A DNA stretch of 50,133 bases, taken from IMG/VR virus record IMGVR_UViG_3300045988_134114, positions 1 to 50,133 of that record; one strand, 5' to 3'. The stretch's first letter is position 1. Every line of letters starts with the position of its first letter. The DNA comes from a virus. The notes under the pieces were generated by a model. The model searched no databases. It worked only from the letters and a program-made list of their open reading frames with translations, and was not told the DNA's origin. The translations under genes and the position numbers were made by a program. Below, piece after piece: positions 5,079 to 28,418 of the stretch.

Positions 5079-5930
5079 TTACAAGGTATATTTTTCGATT
5101 GTCAATTTTGGGATTTCAAATAGCTCATGATCATCTACTTCGTAATCTTCCCAGCGGCACGGGATGTCAATGTCGTCCTTTTTAGCTATCTTGATAGCCT
5201 TATTTATTAATGCGGAGTTGCAAACTCCTAAGCTGGATTCGTGCTTAATCCAGTAAAAAAGGGGAACGTACATGCTTCCGTCTGGGCGGGCGATGGCTGC
5301 ATCTGTCTGGAACATATCCAGCATAGCCACTTTCAATTTTTCCGCGTCCTCATCGGAAAAGCCGGTTTTTTGAGCAATGAATGGCGTAATACCCCCAGAA
5401 AATATATACGCTCCATAATCTATCTTGGGAAGGGACATTCCGTAGGTTTCCGAGCCGCGGCCTTCTTCTGTCGTGATATTTCCTGACCGCGTAATCTGAA
5501 TATCACGAATCGTCACGGCATCCAACGAGCGCGCCATAGATATAGTAACGGGACCCTTAACTCCGGAAATCATGGTATTTTTAAAGGGTAACATGGAGAA
5601 TACCATGCCGAAGGCGCGGACATCGAAAAACTCCTGACAGAGAACGGATATAGCTTCCGTTTCTTGCTTTTGGCTGAGTAATTTTCGAACGGCAGGAAGG
5701 CTTGCCCGTTCCTTTACATTCTTACATCCGTCGTCAATGCGGTCATGGGCCTGTAATAAAATTCGTTCCCCGGCGAGTTGCAGCCGATTACGGATTTTTC
5801 TTTTTATGCAAACGTCAGTAATTTCTCCGTAGCCGACATAATCCGTACGGGGGCGATTTTCTAATAGGGGGTCGCCGTTCGGGTTGCACTTCGTAGCGGA
5901 TATGATTCCAATGAAATTGATTTTATTCAT
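5079..5930 (-). CDS. cas7: Solitary Cas7 homologue (Csd2/Csh2/DevR-type, type I-C/I-B-like backbone subunit)
   Basis: 283 aa. N-terminal signature ATKCNPNGDPLLENRPRTD...GEITDVCIKRKIRNRL. Further motifs FFDVRAFG, VKGPVTISMARS, ITRSG, KTGFSDEDAEKL. RBS GAGGAGG and ATGA overlap with the upstream gene. Confidence 0.8.
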   Translation of the reverse strand: MNKINFIGIISATKCNPNGDPLLENRPRTDYVGYGEITDVCIKRKIRNRLQLAGERILLQAHDRIDDGCKNVKERASLPAVRKLLSQKQETEAISVLCQEFFDVRAFGMVFSMLPFKNTMISGVKGPVTISMARSLDAVTIRDIQITRSGNITTEEGRGSETYGMSLPKIDYGAYIFSGGITPFIAQKTGFSDEDAEKLKVAMLDMFQTDAAIARPDGSMYVPLFYWIKHESSLGVCNSALINKAIKIAKKDDIDIPCRWEDYEVDDHELFEIPKLTIEKYTL

Positions 5931-7200: not shown

Positions 7201-8301
7201 TTATTCCAGATCAAAAATATTTTGGATGTTTTGCGCAGCATTTCGGCGCATTTCTTCACTGTAATGGACATACTTTTTGATGACCGTTTCGACGGTATCC
7301 CCTAACAATGCGGCGACCGTTTTTATGTCAACGCCCCTCGCCAGCAATGTAGTTGCATACGTATGCCGTAAGACATGAATCGAGGTATCCGGAAGGACTT
7401 TCTTTATGTGATGGTTTATGATATTTGTCTCGCTGTTTTTTAAATAAAAGATTCGCCCATCCGGGGCTACTGGGAATTTCGCTTCTTTATATTCTGTCAG
7501 GATTCTTTGCAGCGTGATAGGCATAGGAATCGTCCTTTTAGAATTCGACGTCTTTAGTTTCCCTAACTTATATTCGTATGTCTTTTCAGCTGTCCGAAAT
7601 CTTTTAAATTGGCGGATAACCTTTAATTCCTTTTTGTCTAAGTCAATGGAGGCCCATGTCAGCCCGGCAATTTCGCCATAACGCAGTCCGGCATAATATC
7701 CCACCGCAGCCATCACAGAAAGCATGTACTGATTTTCATGCAAGTATGCATATAAGCAATTGAATTCCTTGGTGGAAATCGTCTGGATTTCTTCTTCATT
7801 GATTTCTGGGTAAATGATTCCGTCCATAGGAGACTTTCTCAATAATTCGTAAAATGTGATCGCGTGGCGGATCATTACTTTGAATTTGCTCATGTATAGC
7901 TCAACAGTGGATGCGGAAAGCTTGGATTCATTTACGCAAGTTTGGATATAAGCCCGTGTAAGGTCTGGTAAAGGAATATTACATAAATCCGAAAAGGCAG
8001 CTATTGCGTTTTCATAAACATCTATAGATCCATCCGAAAGCTGCTTTTTCTTATCTATTTGGTAAATGGCCCAAAATTGTTTCAATGTGATATTTTGCAT
8101 AAGAGGGTCGGCGGGTGTCGGGACATAGTTTTCCGCTATTTCTTTTAATAGCTTTTCCCCGGCAGCTTTGGCAAGGCTTTTCTGTGAGAAGCCCTGCTTT
8201 GACTTCTGTTTCCATTTTCCGTCAGCCTTATACGACAGGATAACCTGCCAGCCGGTAGATTTTTTCCGATAATGGAAAGCATGGGGAATCATATCGTCCA
8301 T
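7201..8301 (-). CDS. int: Tyrosine integrase (recombinase 2; sits beside the lysogeny module)
   Basis: Start M24 of ORF 7201..8370 with RBS GAGGAGG. Motifs AGLRYGE, HVLRHTYAT, LLGDT, YVHY. Confidence 0.85.
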   Translation of the reverse strand: MDDMIPHAFHYRKKSTGWQVILSYKADGKWKQKSKQGFSQKSLAKAAGEKLLKEIAENYVPTPADPLMQNITLKQFWAIYQIDKKKQLSDGSIDVYENAIAAFSDLCNIPLPDLTRAYIQTCVNESKLSASTVELYMSKFKVMIRHAITFYELLRKSPMDGIIYPEINEEEIQTISTKEFNCLYAYLHENQYMLSVMAAVGYYAGLRYGEIAGLTWASIDLDKKELKVIRQFKRFRTAEKTYEYKLGKLKTSNSKRTIPMPITLQRILTEYKEAKFPVAPDGRIFYLKNSETNIINHHIKKVLPDTSIHVLRHTYATTLLARGVDIKTVAALLGDTVETVIKKYVHYSEEMRRNAAQNIQNIFDLE

Positions 8302-8549
8302 GACCTTCACCTCCTCACAAAATAAAACAAGTGTTCGGCTCATTGCGTCTAAATTTTCCCCTGCCTGCAAAACGGGCAGGGGATTTTTGCGTATTAAATG
8401 TAGAATTAAATGCAGAAAATGGGATTATTCTGCATTTATCGTCTTAAAGTGAACGATAAATGGAACGATAAAGCGCGCTTTGAACAGCTTCCAAATTGGA
8501 AATAGTTGCGGTTCCCGGCAGTTGTTGCATTTTTTGCAACAACCACTTT

Positions 8550-23278: not shown

Positions 23279-23375
23279 GGATGGTTGGCCGAGAGGCTTA
23301 AGGCATCAGTTTGCTAAATTGACTTACGCTGGGCGGCGCCCCGTAACGCAGGTTCGAATCCTGCACCATCCGCCA
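23279..23375 (+). tRNA. tRNA-Ser (anticodon GCU), type II with long variable arm, CCA encoded
   Basis: Hand fold. Acceptor GGATGGT/ACCATCC. D stem GCC/GGC. Anticodon stem TCAGT/ATTGA with loop TTGCTAA. 25-nt variable arm. T arm GCAGG-TTCGAAT-CCTGC. Discriminator G plus CCA. Confidence 0.8.
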
Positions 23376-23450: not shown

Positions 23451-23852
23451 ATGGCAGCAAAAACAGGCAGACCGTTGACGGAAATTGATAAAAATGAATT
23501 TGAAAAGCTGTGCGGGCTTCAATGCACGCAGGAAGAAATTTGTTCATTCTTTGGAACGACACCCAAAACATTGCAACGGTGGTGCAGACGAACGTATGGG
23601 GCCGGTTTCTCCCAAGTTTTCGCGGAAAAGCGGCGGAATGGGAAAATTGCCTTGCGCCGTGCCCAGTTCCGGCTGGCACAAAAGAACGCGGCCATGGCTA
23701 TCTTCTTAGGCAAGCAATGGCTGGGGCAAAAGGACATGGATCGCGTCGAGGTCGGCGGCATCGTAGGGCAGCCCATCGAAACGGAAGAACAGGTTCATGT
23801 ACAAATCTATTTACCGGACAACAAGCGGGGCGATAGAGATGACGATACTTAG
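23451..23852 (+). CDS. terS: Terminase small subunit
   Basis: Motifs GRPLTEIDKNEFEKLCGLQCTQEEICSFFGTTPKTLQRWC and AMAIFLGKQWLGQKD. RBS AAAGGAGG. Confidence 0.8.
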   Translation: MAAKTGRPLTEIDKNEFEKLCGLQCTQEEICSFFGTTPKTLQRWCRRTYGAGFSQVFAEKRRNGKIALRRAQFRLAQKNAAMAIFLGKQWLGQKDMDRVEVGGIVGQPIETEEQVHVQIYLPDNKRGDRDDDT

Positions 23853-23913
23853 GCCGCAGCCAGGCCCTCAAGAAATATTCCTTTTGCAAAGGGCTACCGA
23901 TTTTTCTATGTAA
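23839..23913 (+). pseudogene. 24-codon stub of a second, diverged terL 5' end (MTILRPQPGPQEIFLLQRATDFSM*), overlapping the terS stop
   Basis: My translation in the terL frame. The peptide ILRPQPGPQE(I/L)FL is repeated at 23935-23973 with many synonymous differences. Confidence 0.6.
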
Positions 23914-23928
23914 CTGGGGGTGATTAAC

Positions 23929-26427
23929 TTGCCAATATTACGACCACAGCCAGGACCGCAAGAATTATTCCTTGCCTGCCCGGCCGACATTGCAATATAT
24001 GGCGGCTCTTAGTCTGCGGGCGGTGGGAAATCGTATGCCTTGTTGCTTGAATGCCTGCGGCATGTCGGGAATCCGAATTTCGGGGCTGTTATTTTCCGTC
24101 GTCAGTCTACGCAGATTATGGCTGAAGGCGGCTTATTTGATACGGCGCTGGGGATATATGTTCCACTGGGAGCGTATTTTAAACGGGTTCCTGCGCCAAC
24201 GGCCATATTCCCGAGCGGGGCAAAAATAAGCTTCCGGCACTTGCAATACGAAAAGGATGTTCACAGCTGGCAGGGTTCGCAGATACCGCTAATATGTTGT
24301 GAAATAAATACGAAAGTTTTAATGGCCGATGGAACGTATAAAAAAATCGCCGACATAAAAATCGGCGATAAAGTAAAAACACTGGAAGGTTCGGAACAAG
24401 TAGAAGCAGTAGGTCCAATAGAAGAAAGAAAATGCGTAAGGGTCGAATTACAGAATGGAAAAACTCAGATACAATCAAGCAATCATGAGTTCTTAACTAT
24501 TTCTGGGTGGCAGTCTTTTGATAACCTTCTTTTGCAACCCATTTTTCACCATAATAAGACAAAATTTTTTGTATATAAACATAGTTTAATTGCGGATAAT
24601 CACGACACAAATCTCCCATTGATTTATCAGTGGATAATGCATATTCTAAGATTTTTGTTGCAAGAGAAGGATTCGAGTCAATTAATTCCTGCGCTGTCCG
24701 TTTATCATAGGTCGAATGGCATTCGCCCACTTTTGATTTTTTTACCCAAGAGATTCCGTTTTTATCACAAATCCGGCGTATCGTTCGTGCAGAGATGCCC
24801 GTCAATTTGGCAACTTCCCGTAATCCAAAGCGGTTGTCTGGGGCATAAAGTTTTACAGTTTCAATGGCCGCCGGATCATCTATTTGTGTGGGAGAACGGC
24901 GCACATAATTCTTTGTTAATTCCGGAAAGTGTCGGCGCAATGTCTCTACAACAACGCCGAAATGTTTGGCAGTATATTTTATCCCATGATTTTCGAGAAG
25001 TTCTTTCACAACCGGGTATTGCATATTGTCGTGACTTTTCAATCTTTTCAGTTGTTGATGAATGGCCTGATGTTCCGCACGAGAAACTACTTGAAGGTTA
25101 TCAAGACGATTATCTGTCTTGTTTCCATTCTTGTGATGAATTAACTCCGAAGATTGTAAAAAACGGCCAAGAGCTCTCTCTACAATTAAACGGTGTTGTG
25201 GTACATAGCCCCATGGATTCGCCATGGGATGTTTTGGACACAGTTCATAAACGTAATGTCCATAAGTTACGATATTTCCACCCGTATACGGGCAAAGTAA
25301 TTCACTCGGAAGAGCCGTGTTCTTTAACTTCATGCAATGTTACCCCCTGCGGTAAAAGGTTGGTCCGAAATATCATGATATCTGGATGCAATTATTATAT
25401 CACCGAAAGTGGGTTAGTAAACAAAAATTGCTATGACGAATTGACGCATTTCACCGAATCGCAGTTCTTTTACATGCTATCCCGTAACCGTTCGACTTGC
25501 GGCGTGCGGCCTTATATCCGGGCGACATGCAATCCTGATGCCGATAGTTGGGTTGCTGACTTCATTTCATGGTGGATTGACCAGAGTACCGGCTATGCTA
25601 TCCCGGAACGCTCCGGGACACTTCGTTATTTTGTCCGAACGAGCGGCGAAATTACTTGGTCCAGCAGCCGGGAAGAACTGGAAGGAACATACGGCAAAGA
25701 CGCCGTGAAAAGCGTTTCCTTCATCTCGTCCTCAATCTATGACAATAAAATCTTATTGAAAGCAAACCCGGAATATTTGGCAAGCTTGAATGCCTTGCCG
25801 GAGGTCGAAAAAGAACGATTATTGCGGGGAAACTGGAAGATCCGCCCGACTGGGGGCATGTTCTTCAAGGCTTCACAGGTACAGATTGTCAAGTCGATAC
25901 CAGACAAGATTGTTTCAATCGCTAGGGCGTGGGACTTGGCCGCAACGGAAATTACGCCGGAACACAAAGACCCTGACCGCACGGCAGGGGCCTTGTGCGC
26001 ACGGCTGCGGAGCGGACAATTTATTTTTCTTGATGTCATTCGCCGGGCTGCGAATGCGTCGAGTGTTCGCAAGCTCATCAAGACGACTGCCATTATCGAC
26101 CGCGGCCTGTACCATAATGACAAGATTTATATACCGCAAGACCCCGGGCAGGCTGGGAAAGAGCAGGCTTTAAGCTACGTTCGCGAGCTGGCGGGGTACT
26201 CTATTGTTACTCATCCAGTAAGCGGCGATAAAGAAACTCGGGCCGAGCCGCTGGCCGCCCAATGGCAGCAGGGAAATGTCTTGCTGCTTGAAGGGGACTG
26301 GAATAAAGAATTTTTGAACGAAATGGAAGGCTTTCCCGTAGCCCTGCATGATGACCAAGTGGATGCGGCAAGCGATGCGTTTAACGCCGTAGCGTTGACG
26401 TCTGACTGGTCGGCATTAACATCATAA
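23929..26427 (+). CDS. terL: Terminase large subunit. It is interrupted by an in-frame TAG (24010-24012) in Walker A and by an intein (24295-25428) at Walker B
   Basis: TTG at 23929 after GGGGGTGA. N-terminus (M)PILRPQPGPQELFLACPADIAIYGGS*SAGGGKSYALLLECLRHV. Exteins ...GSQIPLI / CYDELTHF.... C-terminal nuclease-half motifs ATCNPD and ALHDDQVDA. Confidence 0.8.
24295..25428 (+). mobile_element. Intein (378 codons) in terL at the Walker B position
   Basis: Block A CCEINTKVLMADG. Block B SSNHEFLT. C-terminal blocks VRNIMISGCNYYITESGLVNKN followed by +1 Cys. Joining the exteins restores ...IPLICYDELTHF. Confidence 0.75.
24497..25333 (-). CDS. HNH homing endonuclease (HNH_3-type) with C-terminal HTH-like repeats, encoded antisense inside the intein
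   Basis: 278 aa. Motifs VPQHRLIVE and ELIHHKNGNKTDNRLDNLQVVSRAEHQAIH. HTH-like motif LREVAKLTGISARTIRRICDKNG. RBS-like GGGGGT 8 nt upstream. Confidence 0.8.
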   Translation of the reverse strand: MKLKNTALPSELLCPYTGGNIVTYGHYVYELCPKHPMANPWGYVPQHRLIVERALGRFLQSSELIHHKNGNKTDNRLDNLQVVSRAEHQAIHQQLKRLKSHDNMQYPVVKELLENHGIKYTAKHFGVVVETLRRHFPELTKNYVRRSPTQIDDPAAIETVKLYAPDNRFGLREVAKLTGISARTIRRICDKNGISWVKKSKVGECHSTYDKRTAQELIDSNPSLATKILEYALSTDKSMGDLCRDYPQLNYVYIQKILSYYGEKWVAKEGYQKTATQK

Positions 26428-27532: not shown

Positions 27533-27614
27533 TACTTTTACCGAAAAGTAAATGAATTTGCGTTGCTTATTTTGCAGAATTATGTGCAAATTTCAGGAAA
27601 GGCAGGTTACAAAC

Positions 27615-28418
27615 ATGGAAAACACGTTGCAGGTTTTCGAAAATCAGGAGTTCGGTACGGTGCGGACATTGTTGGTTAATAATGAACCGTGGTTTGTTGG
27701 GAAGGATGTTGCTGTAATACTAAAATATGCCGACCCAGCTAGAGCTGTATATGACCATGTAGACAGCGAAGACAAAACCTCATTGTTAATTCAACAATCA
27801 GGTTCTAACTATAAGGCCAAGACGGCAGTCATCAATGAAAGCGGCTTGTATAGCTTGGTTCTGTCTTCCAAATTGCCGACGGCGAAGAAGTTCAAGCGTT
27901 GGGTAACGTCCGAAGTGCTGCCTACGATTCGTAAGCACGGCGGCTATTTAACTCCGGAGAAAATTGAAGATGTGCTTCTCAATCCCGACACCATCATTAA
28001 GCTGGCAACGGAACTGAAAGAAGAACGGGCTAAACGCATGGCTCATGAACAGCAAATCGAGCAGGATAAGCCGAAAGTATTATTCGCCGATTCGGTCAGC
28101 GTAAGCCATACGAGTATACTCATCGGTGAGCTGGCAAAGCTGTTGCAGTAAAACGGCGTACCTATGGGGCAGAATCGGTTATTCCAATGGCTGAGGGAAA
28201 AAGGCTATCTGATTCGCCGCAAAGGGACGGACTACAATATGCCGACACAGCGGGCCATGGAAATGGGCTTATTCGAGGTGAAGGAAACGGTTGTCAGCCA
28301 TTCGGACGGACACACGTCTATCAGCAAGACGCCGAAAGTCACTGGTAAAGGCCAGATATACTTTATCAATAAGTTTCTGGAAGGCGCAAAACTGGCGAAG
28401 GCAGGTGGCGAACGATGA
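27615..28418 (+). pseudogene. BRO-N / KilAC antirepressor split by an in-frame TAA (28149-28151)
   Basis: BRO-N motifs LQVFENQEFGTVRT...PWFVGKDVA and RWVTSEVLPTIRKHG. The KilAC-like segment ...ILIGELAKLLQ*NGVPMGQNRLFQWLREKGYLI... runs straight across the stop in the same frame. No SD precedes the ATG at 28164. Confidence 0.65.

What the first reader, a model, noticed from the sequence alone, without database searches (positions are those of the whole stretch)
24001..24033. In-frame TAG flanked by identical TCT codons inside the TerL Walker A motif: nonsense lesion or a +6 ribosomal hop
The sequence reads ...ATA TAT GGC GGC TCT TAG TCT GCG GGC GGT GGG AAA TCG..., which is IYGGS*SAGGGKS. The stop lies in the same frame as both the upstream 27 codons and the 795-codon ORF downstream.

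Deleting the 6 nt TAGTCT gives GSAGGGKS, a perfect GxxxxGK[ST] P-loop. Simple readthrough would instead place the stop-encoded residue at the first motif position.

A stop codon bracketed by identical take-off and landing codons is the classical context for short-range translational bypassing (hopping). The T4 gene 60 precedent links a bypass element to a homing-endonuclease cassette, and an HNH gene lies 0.5 kb downstream here. All other late genes are intact.

Alternatives: an inactivating 6-nt insertion (defective phage), a sequencing error, or suppression of TAG by the host. A second in-frame stop exists in the ant gene (28149), which mildly favours decay.
Basis: partly seen in the sequence, partly recalled or inferred. 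Interest (0 to 1): 0.7.

Follow-up and report, generated by a model that had tools for sequence, protein, structure and literature searches.

The report
Stop-codon hop inside terminase P-loop
A six-base insert carrying a stop codon sits in the ATP-binding loop of a human-gut phage's DNA-packaging gene; relatives show it is conserved and most likely skipped by the ribosome, which would make it a natural "stop-hop" belonging to a widespread class that I could not find described.

Summary
Window 24007-24015 reads TCT TAG TCT, in frame, inside the Walker A motif of terL. All uninterrupted homologues lack exactly these 6 nt.

It is not an error or simple decay. The same TCT-TAG-TCY is present in at least six diverged terL lineages from independent samples. 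Synonymous sites around it are saturated, and both sides are under purifying selection.

Unbiased pattern scans found about 15 insert designs of 4-9 nt in the same seven-codon P-loop of other phage terL genes, and one gene carries two of them (11 nt in all). Each starts with a stop codon directly after a sense codon. Eleven end with a triplet readable by the same tRNA (Ser, Ala or Gly pairs). Most change the reading frame, so readthrough cannot explain them.

Best reading (confidence about 0.8): peptidyl-tRNA-Ser leaves UCU, re-pairs 6 nt downstream, and decoding resumes at GCG, giving the canonical IYGGSAGGGKS.

The HNH gene lies antisense inside a Walker B intein that hexamer-bearing relatives lack.

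The closest precedent is the UUA-triggered 10-nt bypass in Streptomyces phage Hau3 terminase. Natural in-frame stop-hops were reported as unknown in 2016. No experiment supports any of this yet.

The parts
23916..23931 (+). Ribosome-binding site GGGGGTGA (23916-23923) and TTG start codon of terL (23929-23931)
   Evidence: The same RBS and TTG are present in the close relative L006. ATG sits at the homologous position in L001, L002, L007, L008 and L037.
23929..24009 (+). terL coding segment 1: 27 codons, MPILRPQPGPQELFLACPADIAIYGGS, ending in the take-off codon
   Evidence: It is under purifying selection among TAG-bearing lineages: pN 0.12-0.22 against pS 0.57-1.07.
24001..24033 (+). Walker A (P-loop) coding region, GGC GGC TCT [TAG TCT] GCG GGC GGT GGG AAA TCG
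   Evidence: (Terminase_6N).
24007..24009 (+). Proposed take-off codon UCU (Ser27)
   Evidence: It is TCT in all Ser-type lineages. Uninterrupted relatives with Ser at this position use AGT, TCG, TCG, TCT, AGC and AGT.
24010..24015 (+). Proposed 6-nt coding gap: UAG stop (24010-24012) plus landing codon UCU (24013-24015); decoding would resume at GCG 24016
   Evidence: The gap is absent from all uninterrupted homologues. The landing codon is TCT or TCC in every lineage, and both are read by tRNA-Ser(GGA).
24016..26427 (+). terL coding segment 2, from AGGGKS to the stop, including the intein; Terminase_6N and Terminase_6C domains
   Evidence: The extein part is 96% identical to P0001.
24295..25428 (+). 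Intein (378 codons) inserted at Walker B (IPLI | CCEINTK...GLVNKN | CYDE)
   Evidence: Hint-domain hits begin at the first Cys. Homologues read IPLIAFDE or ICLICYDE. The frame has no stops.
24497..25333 (-). HNH_3 + HTH endonuclease ORF (278 aa), antisense inside the intein; not linked to the hexamer
23839..23913 (+). Dead remnant of a different terL 5' end (MTILRPQPGPQEIFL...), overlapping the terS stop; it marks a recombination junction at about 23884, after which the hexamer-bearing L006-like terL begins
   Evidence: alignment with L005 and L006.

Best explanation
The TCT-TAG-TCT is an evolutionarily maintained short translational bypass, a 'stop-hop'.

Proposed steps:
1. Ribosomes start at TTG 23929 and translate 27 codons.
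2. They arrive with peptidyl-tRNA-Ser on UCU (24007-24009) in the P site and UAG in the A site.
3. UAG is slow to decode. In a fraction of ribosomes the peptidyl-tRNA unpairs, the mRNA moves 6 nt, and the same tRNA re-pairs with the identical UCU at 24013-24015.
4. Decoding resumes at GCG 24016.
5. Nine nucleotides therefore specify one serine. The product carries the canonical Walker A IYGGSAGGGKS. After intein splicing it is a normal large terminase of about 452 aa.
6. Ribosomes that do not hop terminate, releasing a 27-residue peptide. The element therefore also sets TerL output to some fraction.

Shown here:
- The insert is conserved.
- Both flanks are under selection.
- The take-off and landing codons are constrained at the nucleotide level.
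- Analogous matched-codon inserts recur in other terL P-loops.

Inferred:
- The hop itself.
- Which tRNA is used: tRNA-Ser(GGA), because the landing codon is UCU or UCC.
- The efficiency.
- The biological purpose. Two candidates are dosage or timing control of terminase, and escape from a nuclease that targets the conserved P-loop DNA.
For: 1. The 6 nt are an insertion relative to every uninterrupted homologue. Deleting them gives the P-loop of P0002, L066 and L076.

2. The same insert occurs in at least six diverged lineages, with TerL 58-81% identical to each other. They come from independent samples: L001, L002-4, L006, L007, L008/L057, L037 and L159.

3. Among these lineages synonymous sites are saturated (pS 0.57-1.07). 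pN is 0.12-0.34 both in the 25 codons upstream and in the 425 codons downstream of TAG. Each gene is otherwise a full-length open frame.

4. Neighbouring third positions vary freely, but the take-off codon is always TCT and the landing codon always TCY. With the Ser codon usage of these genes, the chance for six lineages is about 2e-8. Uninterrupted relatives use AGT, TCG, TCT and AGC at this Ser.

5. Scans that did not specify the insert content found no TerL with extra sense codons in the P-loop. Every TerL hit with extra nucleotides has a stop directly after a sense codon.

6. Eleven of about 15 designs end in a triplet readable by the same tRNA:
- UCC UGA AU UCU (+8)
- GCU UGA GCG and GCG UGA GCU (+6)
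- GCU UAG CU (+5)
- GGC UAG GC, GGU UAG GC, GGU UAG GU and GGA UAG GA (+5)
- GGU UAA GGGC (+7)
- GGU UAG CAA GGU (+9)
L159 carries the Ser +6 insert and a Gly +5 insert in one P-loop. The +4, +5, +7 and +8 inserts change frame, so readthrough, suppression and codon reassignment cannot explain them.

7. Gain and loss are recent. The window's nearest relative (96%) is uninterrupted. L002 (Ser +6) and L147 (Gly +5) are 99% identical in protein.

8. Eight of nine Gly-type inserts have a GGGGG run (Shine-Dalgarno-like, as in RF2) just 5' of the stop, against 28 of 157 uninterrupted genes (p = 2e-5).

9. In the window, the TerL/intein frame is kept free of stops across an antisense HNH gene. None of 20000 synonymous resamplings achieved this. 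The full-length precursor has therefore been under selection.

10. There is no suppressor tRNA. The only tRNA is a normal tRNA-Ser(GCU). TAG ends terS, and no other gene is split by TAG.

11. Precedent exists: bypass of 10-nt inserts in Streptomyces phage Hau3 terminase, supported by mass spectrometry in E. coli (PMC10732093), and synthetic stop-hops (PMC5009743).
Against: - There is no experimental evidence: no protein, reporter or ribosome-profiling data.
- Un-stimulated stop-hops in synthetic constructs are described as low-level (PMC5009743; 10.1101/2024.12.09.627546). I found no conserved RNA structure around the Ser-type site; the RNAalifold covariation term was 0.02 and only a weak 4-bp hairpin appeared.
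- The Ser-type insert may have a single origin, so part of its conservation is shared ancestry. Saturated synonymous sites argue that this is not sufficient.
- Four of about 15 designs lack a fully matched landing triplet: L014/L044 CGC, L096 GUU, L153 AGC, L203/L217 AGU.
- This particular prophage shows some rearrangement or decay: a nonsense TAA in ant and a dead terL 5' remnant. Its own copy could be inactive even if the class is functional.
- The host and its tRNA set are unknown. No example was found in GTDB representative genomes. No cultured-phage example was identified: the closest GenBank phage TerL is under 60% identical and only the 60 best records were listed.
Confidence: 0.8

Rival explanations
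1. Stop-codon readthrough. UAG is read by a near-cognate or suppressor tRNA, giving TerL with two extra residues (GGS-X-SAGGGKS) that is still active.
For: - The insert is in frame, so readthrough would give a full-length protein.
- The first Walker A position is often deviant in large terminases (background knowledge).
- Readthrough and a +6 hop differ by only two residues in the product (PMC5009743).
Against: - No suppressor tRNA is present in the window or in related loci.
- No TerL in any scan carries two extra sense codons here.
- Readthrough gives no reason for the flanking codons to be held at TCT and TCY.
- The analogous +4, +5, +7 and +8 inserts in the same loop change frame. One of them sits in the same gene as a Ser +6 insert (L159).
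Confidence: 0.06
2. Inactivating lesion. This prophage's terL is a pseudogene, dead by a 6-nt insertion, and the element is defective.
For: - The ant gene has an in-frame TAA inside its ANT domain.
- A dead terL 5' remnant lies upstream.
- The sequence is a metagenome contig with no evidence of induction.
Against: - The same insert is present in at least six diverged lineages with saturated synonymous sites. Purifying selection acts on both sides.
- There are no other disruptions in 830 codons.
- The frame is actively kept open across the antisense HNH ORF.
- Interruptions elsewhere in terL are rare: 1 of 143 genes, a single-nucleotide one. They cluster in the 21-nt P-loop instead.
Confidence: 0.08
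3. Sequencing or assembly artefact.
For: The window is a short-read metagenome scaffold, and the motif is G-rich.
Against: - An identical design occurs in independent assemblies and collections (Logan, ENA, IMG/VR, JGI). These include prophages from isolate genomes (L006, L204).
- An artefact would not always create a stop plus a matched codon.
Confidence: 0.01
4. The insert is removed before translation, either at DNA level (a precise deletion in the replicating phage) or at RNA level (editing or splicing of the 6 nt).
For: - The insert is flanked by 3-nt direct repeats (TCT...TCT), which could support slippage deletion.
- A patch of elevated divergence centred on the P-loop suggests local DNA exchange.
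Against: - A revertant lacking the insert would outcompete its parent, yet the insert persists across deep divergence.
- No known bacterial mechanism removes 4-9 nt from mRNA.
- Several designs have no flanking repeats at DNA level other than the matched codon.
Confidence: 0.03
5. TAG is a sense codon in this phage or its host (code 15-like reassignment, or pyrrolysine).
For: The stop is TAG in all Ser-type lineages.
Against: - terS ends in TAG, and 24 of 100 long stop-free stretches (at least 120 codons, all six frames) end in TAG.
- No other gene is interrupted by TAG.
- Other designs use TGA or TAA.
- The two codons are extra relative to all homologues.
Confidence: 0.01

Closest known systems
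[quoted passage not shown] 2013; Antonov et al. 2023, PMC10732093)
   Same: - Short non-coding blocks (10 or 7 nt) sit inside terL and are absent from homologues.
- A slow-to-decode codon lies directly 3' of the take-off codon.
- A Shine-Dalgarno-like stimulator has been proposed.
- A junction peptide was shown by mass spectrometry in E. coli with UAA replacing UUA.
- By eye, the g6/g7 junction (…LKGWG|KD…) looks like the Walker A GK. That is the same G|K position as the Gly-type inserts found here. I could not confirm this with tools.
   Different: - The Hau3 trigger is the rare sense codon UUA, tied to bldA tRNA biology, not a stop codon.
- Hau3 gaps change frame, whereas the window's gap is in frame (+6).
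- Only 3 of 100 Streptomyces ter genes were affected.
- It is a different TerL family, with no detectable sequence similarity tested here.
Synthetic 'stop-hops' (Weiss, Dunn, Atkins & Gesteland 1987; reviewed in PMC5009743)
   Same: The anatomy is exactly the same. Matched codons flank a stop, nine nucleotides specify one amino acid, and +5 and +6 versions exist.
   Different: - They are known only from engineered constructs in E. coli, at low efficiency.
- The 2016 review says of natural in-frame stop hopping that 'no occurrences are known'.
- Here the arrangement is natural, conserved and in an essential gene.
Phage T4 gene 60 bypass element
   Same: [quoted passage not shown] One Gly-type design here (L175) even uses GGA...GGA.
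   Different: - Gene 60 has a 50-nt gap, a take-off stem-loop, a 5' stem-loop, a nascent-peptide signal (KKYK) and linkage to the mobA homing endonuclease.
- None of these is found here. The gap is 6 nt, no conserved structure was detected, and the N-terminal peptide is the same in uninterrupted homologues.
- The HNH gene is not linked to the insert.
Bypass elements ('byps') in Magnusiomyces mitochondria (cited in PMC5009743)
   Same: Many short inserts are corrected during translation. An unused or slow A-site codon is involved. Some landing triplets match only two of three bases, as in 4 of the designs found here.
   Different: - Those occur in mitochondrial ribosomes with relaxed decoding.
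- Inserts are 27-55 nt (from memory) and scattered through many genes.
- Here the inserts are confined to one seven-codon motif of one gene family in bacterial viruses.
RF2 (prfB) programmed +1 frameshift
   Same: A stop codon sits in the A site, the P-site tRNA re-pairs forward, and a G-rich Shine-Dalgarno-like sequence lies a few nucleotides 5' of the shift site. Compare the GGGGG enrichment.
   Different: - RF2 re-pairs on an overlapping codon (+1).
- RF2 is autoregulatory through RF2 itself.
- Here the tRNA re-pairs on a non-overlapping triplet 4-9 nt downstream.

Membership tests
Programmed translational bypassing (hopping) | Take-off and landing triplets can pair with the same peptidyl-tRNA, and the landing triplet lies directly 5' of the codon where homology resumes | tested here: met
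   - Window: UCU...UCU.
- Relatives: UCU...UCC.
- Eleven of about 15 independent designs are matched.
Programmed translational bypassing (hopping) | A slow-to-decode codon (a stop, or a rare or hungry codon) lies directly 3' of the take-off codon | tested here: met
   UAG lies at 24010-24012. Every P-loop insert found starts with UAG, UGA or UAA.
Programmed translational bypassing (hopping) | The gap is not represented in the protein: homologues lack the corresponding residues, and the product after bypass is collinear with them | tested here: met
   - The comparison covers 157 distinct uninterrupted P-loop contexts.
- No TerL was found with extra sense codons in the P-loop.
- This is comparative evidence only. 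The protein itself was not observed.
Programmed translational bypassing (hopping) | The element is maintained by selection: conserved across lineages, with both ORF parts under purifying selection | tested here: met
Programmed translational bypassing (hopping) | The junction peptide is demonstrated (mass spectrometry or reporter), and yield depends on the landing codon | not testable with these tools
   This needs an experiment.
Programmed translational bypassing (hopping) | Dedicated stimulatory signals (mRNA structure, nascent peptide, internal Shine-Dalgarno) | tested here: inconclusive
   - No covarying structure was found at the Ser-type site.
- The nascent peptide is the same as in uninterrupted genes.
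- A GGGGG run is enriched 5' of Gly-type inserts, but not at the window's site (GGCGGC).
T4 gene-60-type mobile bypass cassette | A gap of about 50 nt with a take-off stem-loop | tested here: not met
   The gap is 6 nt and no conserved stem-loop was found.
T4 gene-60-type mobile bypass cassette | Physical linkage of the bypass insert to a homing-endonuclease gene that moves with it | tested here: not met
   - The HNH ORF is antisense inside a Walker B intein, 0.5 kb away.
- L001, L002, L007 and L008 carry the hexamer but no intein or HNH.
- L114 and L117 carry the intein and HNH with an uninterrupted P-loop.
Stop-codon readthrough or suppression | A suppressor tRNA, or a product with residues encoded by the stop and the following codon | tested here: not met
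   - No suppressor tRNA was found.
- No homologue has the two extra residues.
- Frame-changing sister inserts exist.
Alternative genetic code (TAG reassigned) | In-frame TAG in many genes, with TAG avoided as a terminator | tested here: not met
   TAG terminates terS and about a quarter of long stop-free stretches (all six frames). Only terL is split by TAG.
Large terminase, Terminase_6N/6C family | ATPase domain with Walker A and B motifs, plus an RNaseH-like nuclease domain | tested here: met
   - Pfam PF03237 (E = 1.2e-21) and PF17289 (E = 2.4e-14).
- 96% identity to the uninterrupted P0001.

The most novel reading that the evidence does not exclude
The window's TCT-TAG-TCT would be a natural, selected, in-frame stop-hop. 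It would also be one member of an unrecognised and widespread class. That class consists of stop-triggered micro-bypass inserts of 4-9 nt (+4 to +9; two can share one P-loop, as in L159, +11 in all). They have arisen repeatedly, and turn over quickly, within the seven codons that encode the Walker A loop of phage large-terminase genes.

The G-rich, Shine-Dalgarno-like glycine codons of the P-loop would act as the built-in stimulator.

The inserts could persist for either of two reasons. They may gate terminase synthesis. Alternatively, an insertion in this ultra-conserved DNA target may defeat a sequence-specific nuclease (a homing endonuclease or a defence system) in a way that synonymous changes cannot.
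Probability: 0.65. Interest if true: 0.9.

Novelty: new variant of a known kind. Interest (0 to 1): 0.85.

Why it matters
Translational bypassing is one of the rarest recoding events. As of a December 2024 preprint from specialists in the field, the listed cases were T4 gene 60, the Hau3 terminase candidates and Magnusiomyces mitochondria. The 2016 reference review states that no natural in-frame stop-hop is known.

What this finding adds, if the reading holds:
- It supplies about 15 natural designs. They use three tRNA families, all three stop codons and gaps of 4-9 nt, all in one small and well-understood motif of an essential gene.
- That amounts to a ready-made natural mutagenesis series for studying take-off, landing and Shine-Dalgarno effects.
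- It makes testable the question of whether short hops are used in nature.

Practical consequences:
- Gene callers truncate these terL genes. In this contig TerL was called as a 350-aa fragment, and homologues P0005, P0073 and P0075 start after the P-loop.
- Affected phages may therefore be scored as defective. TerL-based phylogenies and completeness estimates are affected too.

It may also reveal a new way for phages either to throttle terminase or to escape nucleases that target conserved coding DNA.

Tried and rejected
- **Suppressor tRNA.** The only tRNA in the window is an ordinary tRNA-Ser(GCU). Most hexamer-bearing loci have no tRNA.
- **Codon reassignment.** Rejected.
- **Gene-60-like HNH linkage.** Rejected.
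- **Conserved RNA structure around the site.** Single folds are inconsistent with each other. RNAalifold gave only a 4-bp hairpin (GCGG/CYGC) with no covariation. This is not evidence either way.
- **Megablast of the terL region against GenBank phages.** No match.
- **tblastn against GenBank phages.** All hits were below 60% identity. The only split hit among the 60 best records listed was Escherichia phage EC6, a 1-nt difference near the 3' end that is unrelated to the P-loop. No cultured phage with an interrupted P-loop was found.
- **GTDB representative genomes.** The host is therefore not identified.
- **The listing of cluster members.** Timed out.
- **Placing the Hau3 junction on a P-loop.** Attempts with PDB and Pfam gave no hits. 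That equivalence stays a by-eye inference.
- **Sharp recombination breakpoint at the P-loop.**
  - L002 vs L147: only mosaic identity.
  - L008 vs L159: a local patch of divergence. This is suggestive but not conclusive.
- **Literature searches.** Searches for natural stop-hops or terminase bypass beyond Hau3 found nothing. The library lacks most subscription-journal papers.
Full report
**1. The observation**

Window 23995-24033 reads ATA TAT GGC GGC TCT TAG TCT GCG GGC GGT GGG AAA TCG, which is IYGGS*SAGGGKS. TAG lies at 24010-24012. It is in frame with a TTG start at 23929, preceded by GGGGGTGA at 23916-23923, and with the long ORF ending at 26427.

Pfam assigns the protein to Terminase_6N and Terminase_6C. 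The window is an ENA human-gut metagenome scaffold: QINJ12-1_SAMN00792098 scaffold_606, 50133 nt. It encodes a temperate phage, with an integrase at 7201-8370 (a second integrase-family ORF at 1383-2393), an S24/HTH repressor, and portal, MuF, capsid and tail genes.

**2. The hexamer is an insertion**

A protein search with the hop product, with the intein removed, returned thousands of large terminases.
- The closest is P0001 (96% identical), which reads IAIYGGAAGGGKS.
- P0002 (85%) reads IAIYGGSAGGGKT.
- In IMG/VR, 157 distinct uninterrupted contexts all fit YGG-x-x-GGGK[ST], nearly all of them YGG-x-A-GGGK[ST].

The window therefore has exactly two extra codons. Removing TAGTCT restores the family motif.

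**3. It is conserved, not an error and not simple decay**

Some database homologues were called as 415-aa proteins that start just after the P-loop. Their contigs show why.
- L001 (TerL 81% identical to the window's) has GGT GGT TCT TAG TCC GCT.
- L002, L003 and L004 (about 67% identical; three different samples) have GGC GGC TCT TAG TCC GCA.

I then ran a pattern that fixed only the flanking codons and left the nine middle bases free: TAYGGNGGN-N9-GCNGGNGGNGGNAARWC. In IMG/VR and JGI/ENA metagenomes it found further Ser-type lineages: L006, L007, L008/L057 and L037.

Evidence for selection:
- Among the five full-length lineages, synonymous differences are saturated (pS 0.57-1.07). Non-synonymous differences are 0.12-0.34.
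- This holds both for the 25 codons upstream of the stop and for the 425 codons downstream.
- Every gene is otherwise a single uninterrupted frame.
- Third positions of the neighbouring Gly, Ala and Tyr codons vary freely. The take-off codon is always TCT and the landing codon always TCT or TCC.
- With the Ser codon usage of these genes (TCT 19%, TCY 28%), the chance of this in six lineages is about 2e-8.
- Uninterrupted relatives with Ser at this position use AGT, TCG, TCG, TCT, AGC and AGT.

UCU and UCC are the two codons read by tRNA-Ser(GGA). That is standard wobble knowledge, not a tool result.

**4. The window's element belongs to a larger class**

The unbiased scans and two variable-gap scans (TATGG/TACGGNGGN{17,28}AARWCNTAYGCNYT) found other terL genes with extra nucleotides in the same seven-codon loop. 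So did a look at two further truncated homologues and at 80 relatives. Every one starts with a stop codon directly after a sense codon.

Designs with a matched landing triplet:

| Design | Shift | Loci |
|---|---|---|
| UCU UAG UCY | +6 | window and the Ser-type lineages above |
| UCC UGA AU UCU | +8 | L157/L170 |
| GCU UGA GCG | +6 | L010 |
| GCG UGA GCU | +6 | L041, a distant TerL |
| GCU UAG CU | +5 | L205 |
| GGC UAG GC | +5 | L147/L148, L198 |
| GGU UAG GC | +5 | L159 |
| GGU UAG GU | +5 | L204 |
| GGA UAG GA | +5 | L175 |
| GGU UAA GGGC | +7 | L218 |
| GGU UAG CAA GGU | +9 | L150/L168/L176 |

L159 has the Ser +6 insert and a Gly +5 insert in one P-loop.

Designs that match in only two of three positions:

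| Design | Loci |
|---|---|
| GGC UAA CGC | L014/L044 |
| GCU UAG UU | L096 |
| GGU UAG C | L153 |
| GGU UAG U | L203/L217 |

Further points:
- In each case, skipping from the take-off codon to the triplet before the resume codon gives the canonical P-loop. The downstream frame is then open for 421-762 codons.
- No TerL with extra sense codons in the loop was found.
- The frame-changing inserts cannot be explained by readthrough, suppression or codon reassignment.
- The matched pairs all fit a single tRNA: Ser GGA, Ala UGC, Gly GCC or UCC.

**5. Dynamics and hot spot**

- The window's nearest relative is uninterrupted (L005/P0001, 96%).
- L002 (Ser +6) and L147 (Gly +5) are 99% identical in protein. 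L157 (Ser +8) and L198 (Gly +5) are 93% identical.
- The inserts are therefore gained, lost or exchanged on short time scales.
- Elsewhere in terL, only 1 of 143 genes was interrupted, by a single nucleotide.
- About 2% of relatives are interrupted within the 21-nt P-loop: 3 of the 120 best protein hits, and 1 of about 57 loci.
- Eight of nine Gly-type inserts have a GGGGG run within the 9 nt before the stop, against 28 of 157 uninterrupted genes. Fisher p = 2e-5, not corrected for phylogeny. This resembles the Shine-Dalgarno-like stimulator of RF2 frameshifting and may explain why the glycine-rich P-loop is the favoured site. At the window's own site the upstream sequence is GGCGGC, so this feature is not evident there.
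- L008 and L159 are 98-100% identical upstream. They show a patch of about 130 nt with 15-20% divergence centred on the P-loop. This looks like a short conversion tract. It is compatible with, but does not prove, double-strand-break repair at this site.

**6. The window's own context**

The window is a recombinant.
- It is L005-like (the uninterrupted type) through terS and the first 15 codons of terL (23839-23883; MTILRPQPGPQEIFL).
- It then switches, at a microhomology, to an L006-like segment. That segment brings its own RBS, a TTG start and the hexamer-bearing 5' end.
- The old 5' end remains as a dead 24-codon remnant.

TerL also carries a 378-codon intein at Walker B (24295-25428). An HNH_3+HTH ORF lies antisense inside it (24497-25333).
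- The TerL frame has no stops across that ORF.
- None of 20000 synonymous resamplings of the HNH gene keeps it open (mean 9.9 stops).
- Translation of the full precursor has therefore been under selection. This is hard to reconcile with a dead gene.

The hexamer occurs without the intein (L001, L002, L007, L008). The intein occurs without the hexamer (L114, L117).

The ant gene does have a TAA inside its ANT domain at 28149. No matched codons flank it, so it looks like an ordinary nonsense mutation in a dispensable gene.

**7. Mechanism**

The best-supported model is a +6 stop-hop.
1. Peptidyl-tRNA-Ser sits on UCU with UAG in the A site.
2. It unpairs and re-pairs on the downstream UCU.
3. Decoding resumes at GCG.

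What is shown is the anatomy, the conservation, the codon constraint, the absence of translated equivalents, and the family of analogous designs. What is inferred is the hop itself, its efficiency, the tRNA used and the purpose.

Non-hopping ribosomes would terminate, so the element must reduce TerL output. Two purposes seem plausible.
- Dosage or timing control, or a safety catch in the prophage. This parallels the proposal for Hau3.
- Escape from a nuclease that recognises the invariant first and second codon positions of the P-loop. An insertion defeats such an enzyme where synonymous changes cannot. This is analogous to the proposed origin of the gene 60 gap (PMC5009743).

I could not discriminate between these.

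**8. Comparison with what is known**

The closest precedent is Streptomyces phage Hau3 terminase. It has two 10-nt inserts that start with the rare UUA codon. Bypass is supported by a junction peptide (GWG|NDPLL...) in E. coli when UUA is replaced by UAA. Only 3 of 100 ter genes are affected (PMC10732093). Its first junction (…LKGWG|KD…) looks to me like the G|K of Walker A, which is the position of the Gly-type inserts here. I could not verify this.

Stop-hops with matched codons, in +5 and +6 versions, were defined with synthetic constructs by Weiss et al. 1987. The 2016 review says that no natural in-frame occurrence is known (PMC5009743). A December 2024 preprint from the same field lists only gene 60, the Hau3 terminase and Magnusiomyces mitochondria (10.1101/2024.12.09.627546).

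Searches of the held library found nothing further. The library omits most subscription-journal papers, so prior description cannot be excluded.

**9. Verdict**

The hop interpretation is strongly supported by comparative evidence (confidence about 0.8) but has not been tested experimentally. It is a new variant of a known kind of recoding and appears to be the visible tip of a broader, undescribed class. Interest: 0.85.

Noticed in passing
window 24295-25428 (+) and 24497-25333 (-); also L114 133-2499 with minus ORF 749-1405, and L117 with minus ORF 99-875: The TerL intein at Walker B carries its HNH+HTH endonuclease gene on the opposite strand. The sense (intein) frame is kept completely free of stops across it: none of 20000 synonymous resamplings achieved this, and the other + frames have 13 and 22 stops. 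The same architecture is present in two diverged phages (HNH 41% identical). I found no description of such an antisense-endonuclease intein in the library.
   Followed up: partly
window 23839-23913: This is a dead remnant of another terL 5' end (MTILRPQPGPQEIFL, then LQRATDFSM*). It overlaps the terS stop, is identical in type to the uninterrupted relative L005, and marks a recombination junction at about 23884. From there the L006-like, hexamer-bearing terL with its own RBS begins.
   Followed up: yes
window 28149-28151 (ant gene, 27552-28418): An in-frame TAA lies inside the KilAC/ANT domain of a Bro-N/ANT antirepressor-like gene (…ELAKLLQ*NGVPMGQNRLF…). No matched flanking codons are present, so it looks like an ordinary nonsense mutation. 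The downstream part could be expressed from the ATG at 28164.
   Followed up: partly
L159 (IMGVR_UViG_3300045988_145969), P-loop: Two bypass-type inserts sit in one P-loop: TCT TAG TCT (+6) and GGT TAG GC (+5), four codons apart. The gene also contains a long insertion, probably an intein (762 codons downstream of the P-loop Lys codon).
   Followed up: partly
L167 and L215 (IMG/VR), P-loop of a different TerL family: The sequence is YGGAIR, then one extra nucleotide (CGA C AGC GGY GGW AAA ACT), so that SGGKT is in the +1 frame. The arrangement is conserved in two contigs. It may be a +1 frameshift site in the same motif, or the downstream part may start at an internal ATG.
   Followed up: no
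L317 about 2070-2080: This is the only interruption found outside the P-loop among 143 terL genes. ACT GGT T GAT GAG carries a single extra T that creates GGT TGA. It is either a 'shifty stop' +1 site or a sequencing error.
   Followed up: partly
L008 vs L159, about 60 nt either side of the P-loop: A patch of about 130 nt with 15-20% divergence is centred on the P-loop, between phages that are otherwise 98-100% identical upstream. It resembles a short gene-conversion tract.
   Followed up: partly
window 5079-5930 (-): A Cas7-family ORF (PF05107, E = 2e-66) lies between two integrase-family genes at the left end of the contig, next to macro-domain and amidase genes. Whether it belongs to the phage or to flanking host DNA was not determined.
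   Followed up: no
window 23279-23375; L006 135-307: A tRNA-Ser(GCU) lies just upstream of terS. In the relative L006 the same tRNA is followed by a tRNA-Trp(CCA). It is an ordinary AGY reader, not a suppressor, and is absent from most hexamer-bearing loci.
   Followed up: yes
L341 (Escherichia phage EC6, NC_027369.1, 18792-18837): terL is annotated as two CDSs because the record is 1 nt shorter than related Felixounavirus genomes near the 3' end. This is probably a sequencing error and is unrelated to the P-loop.
   Followed up: partly
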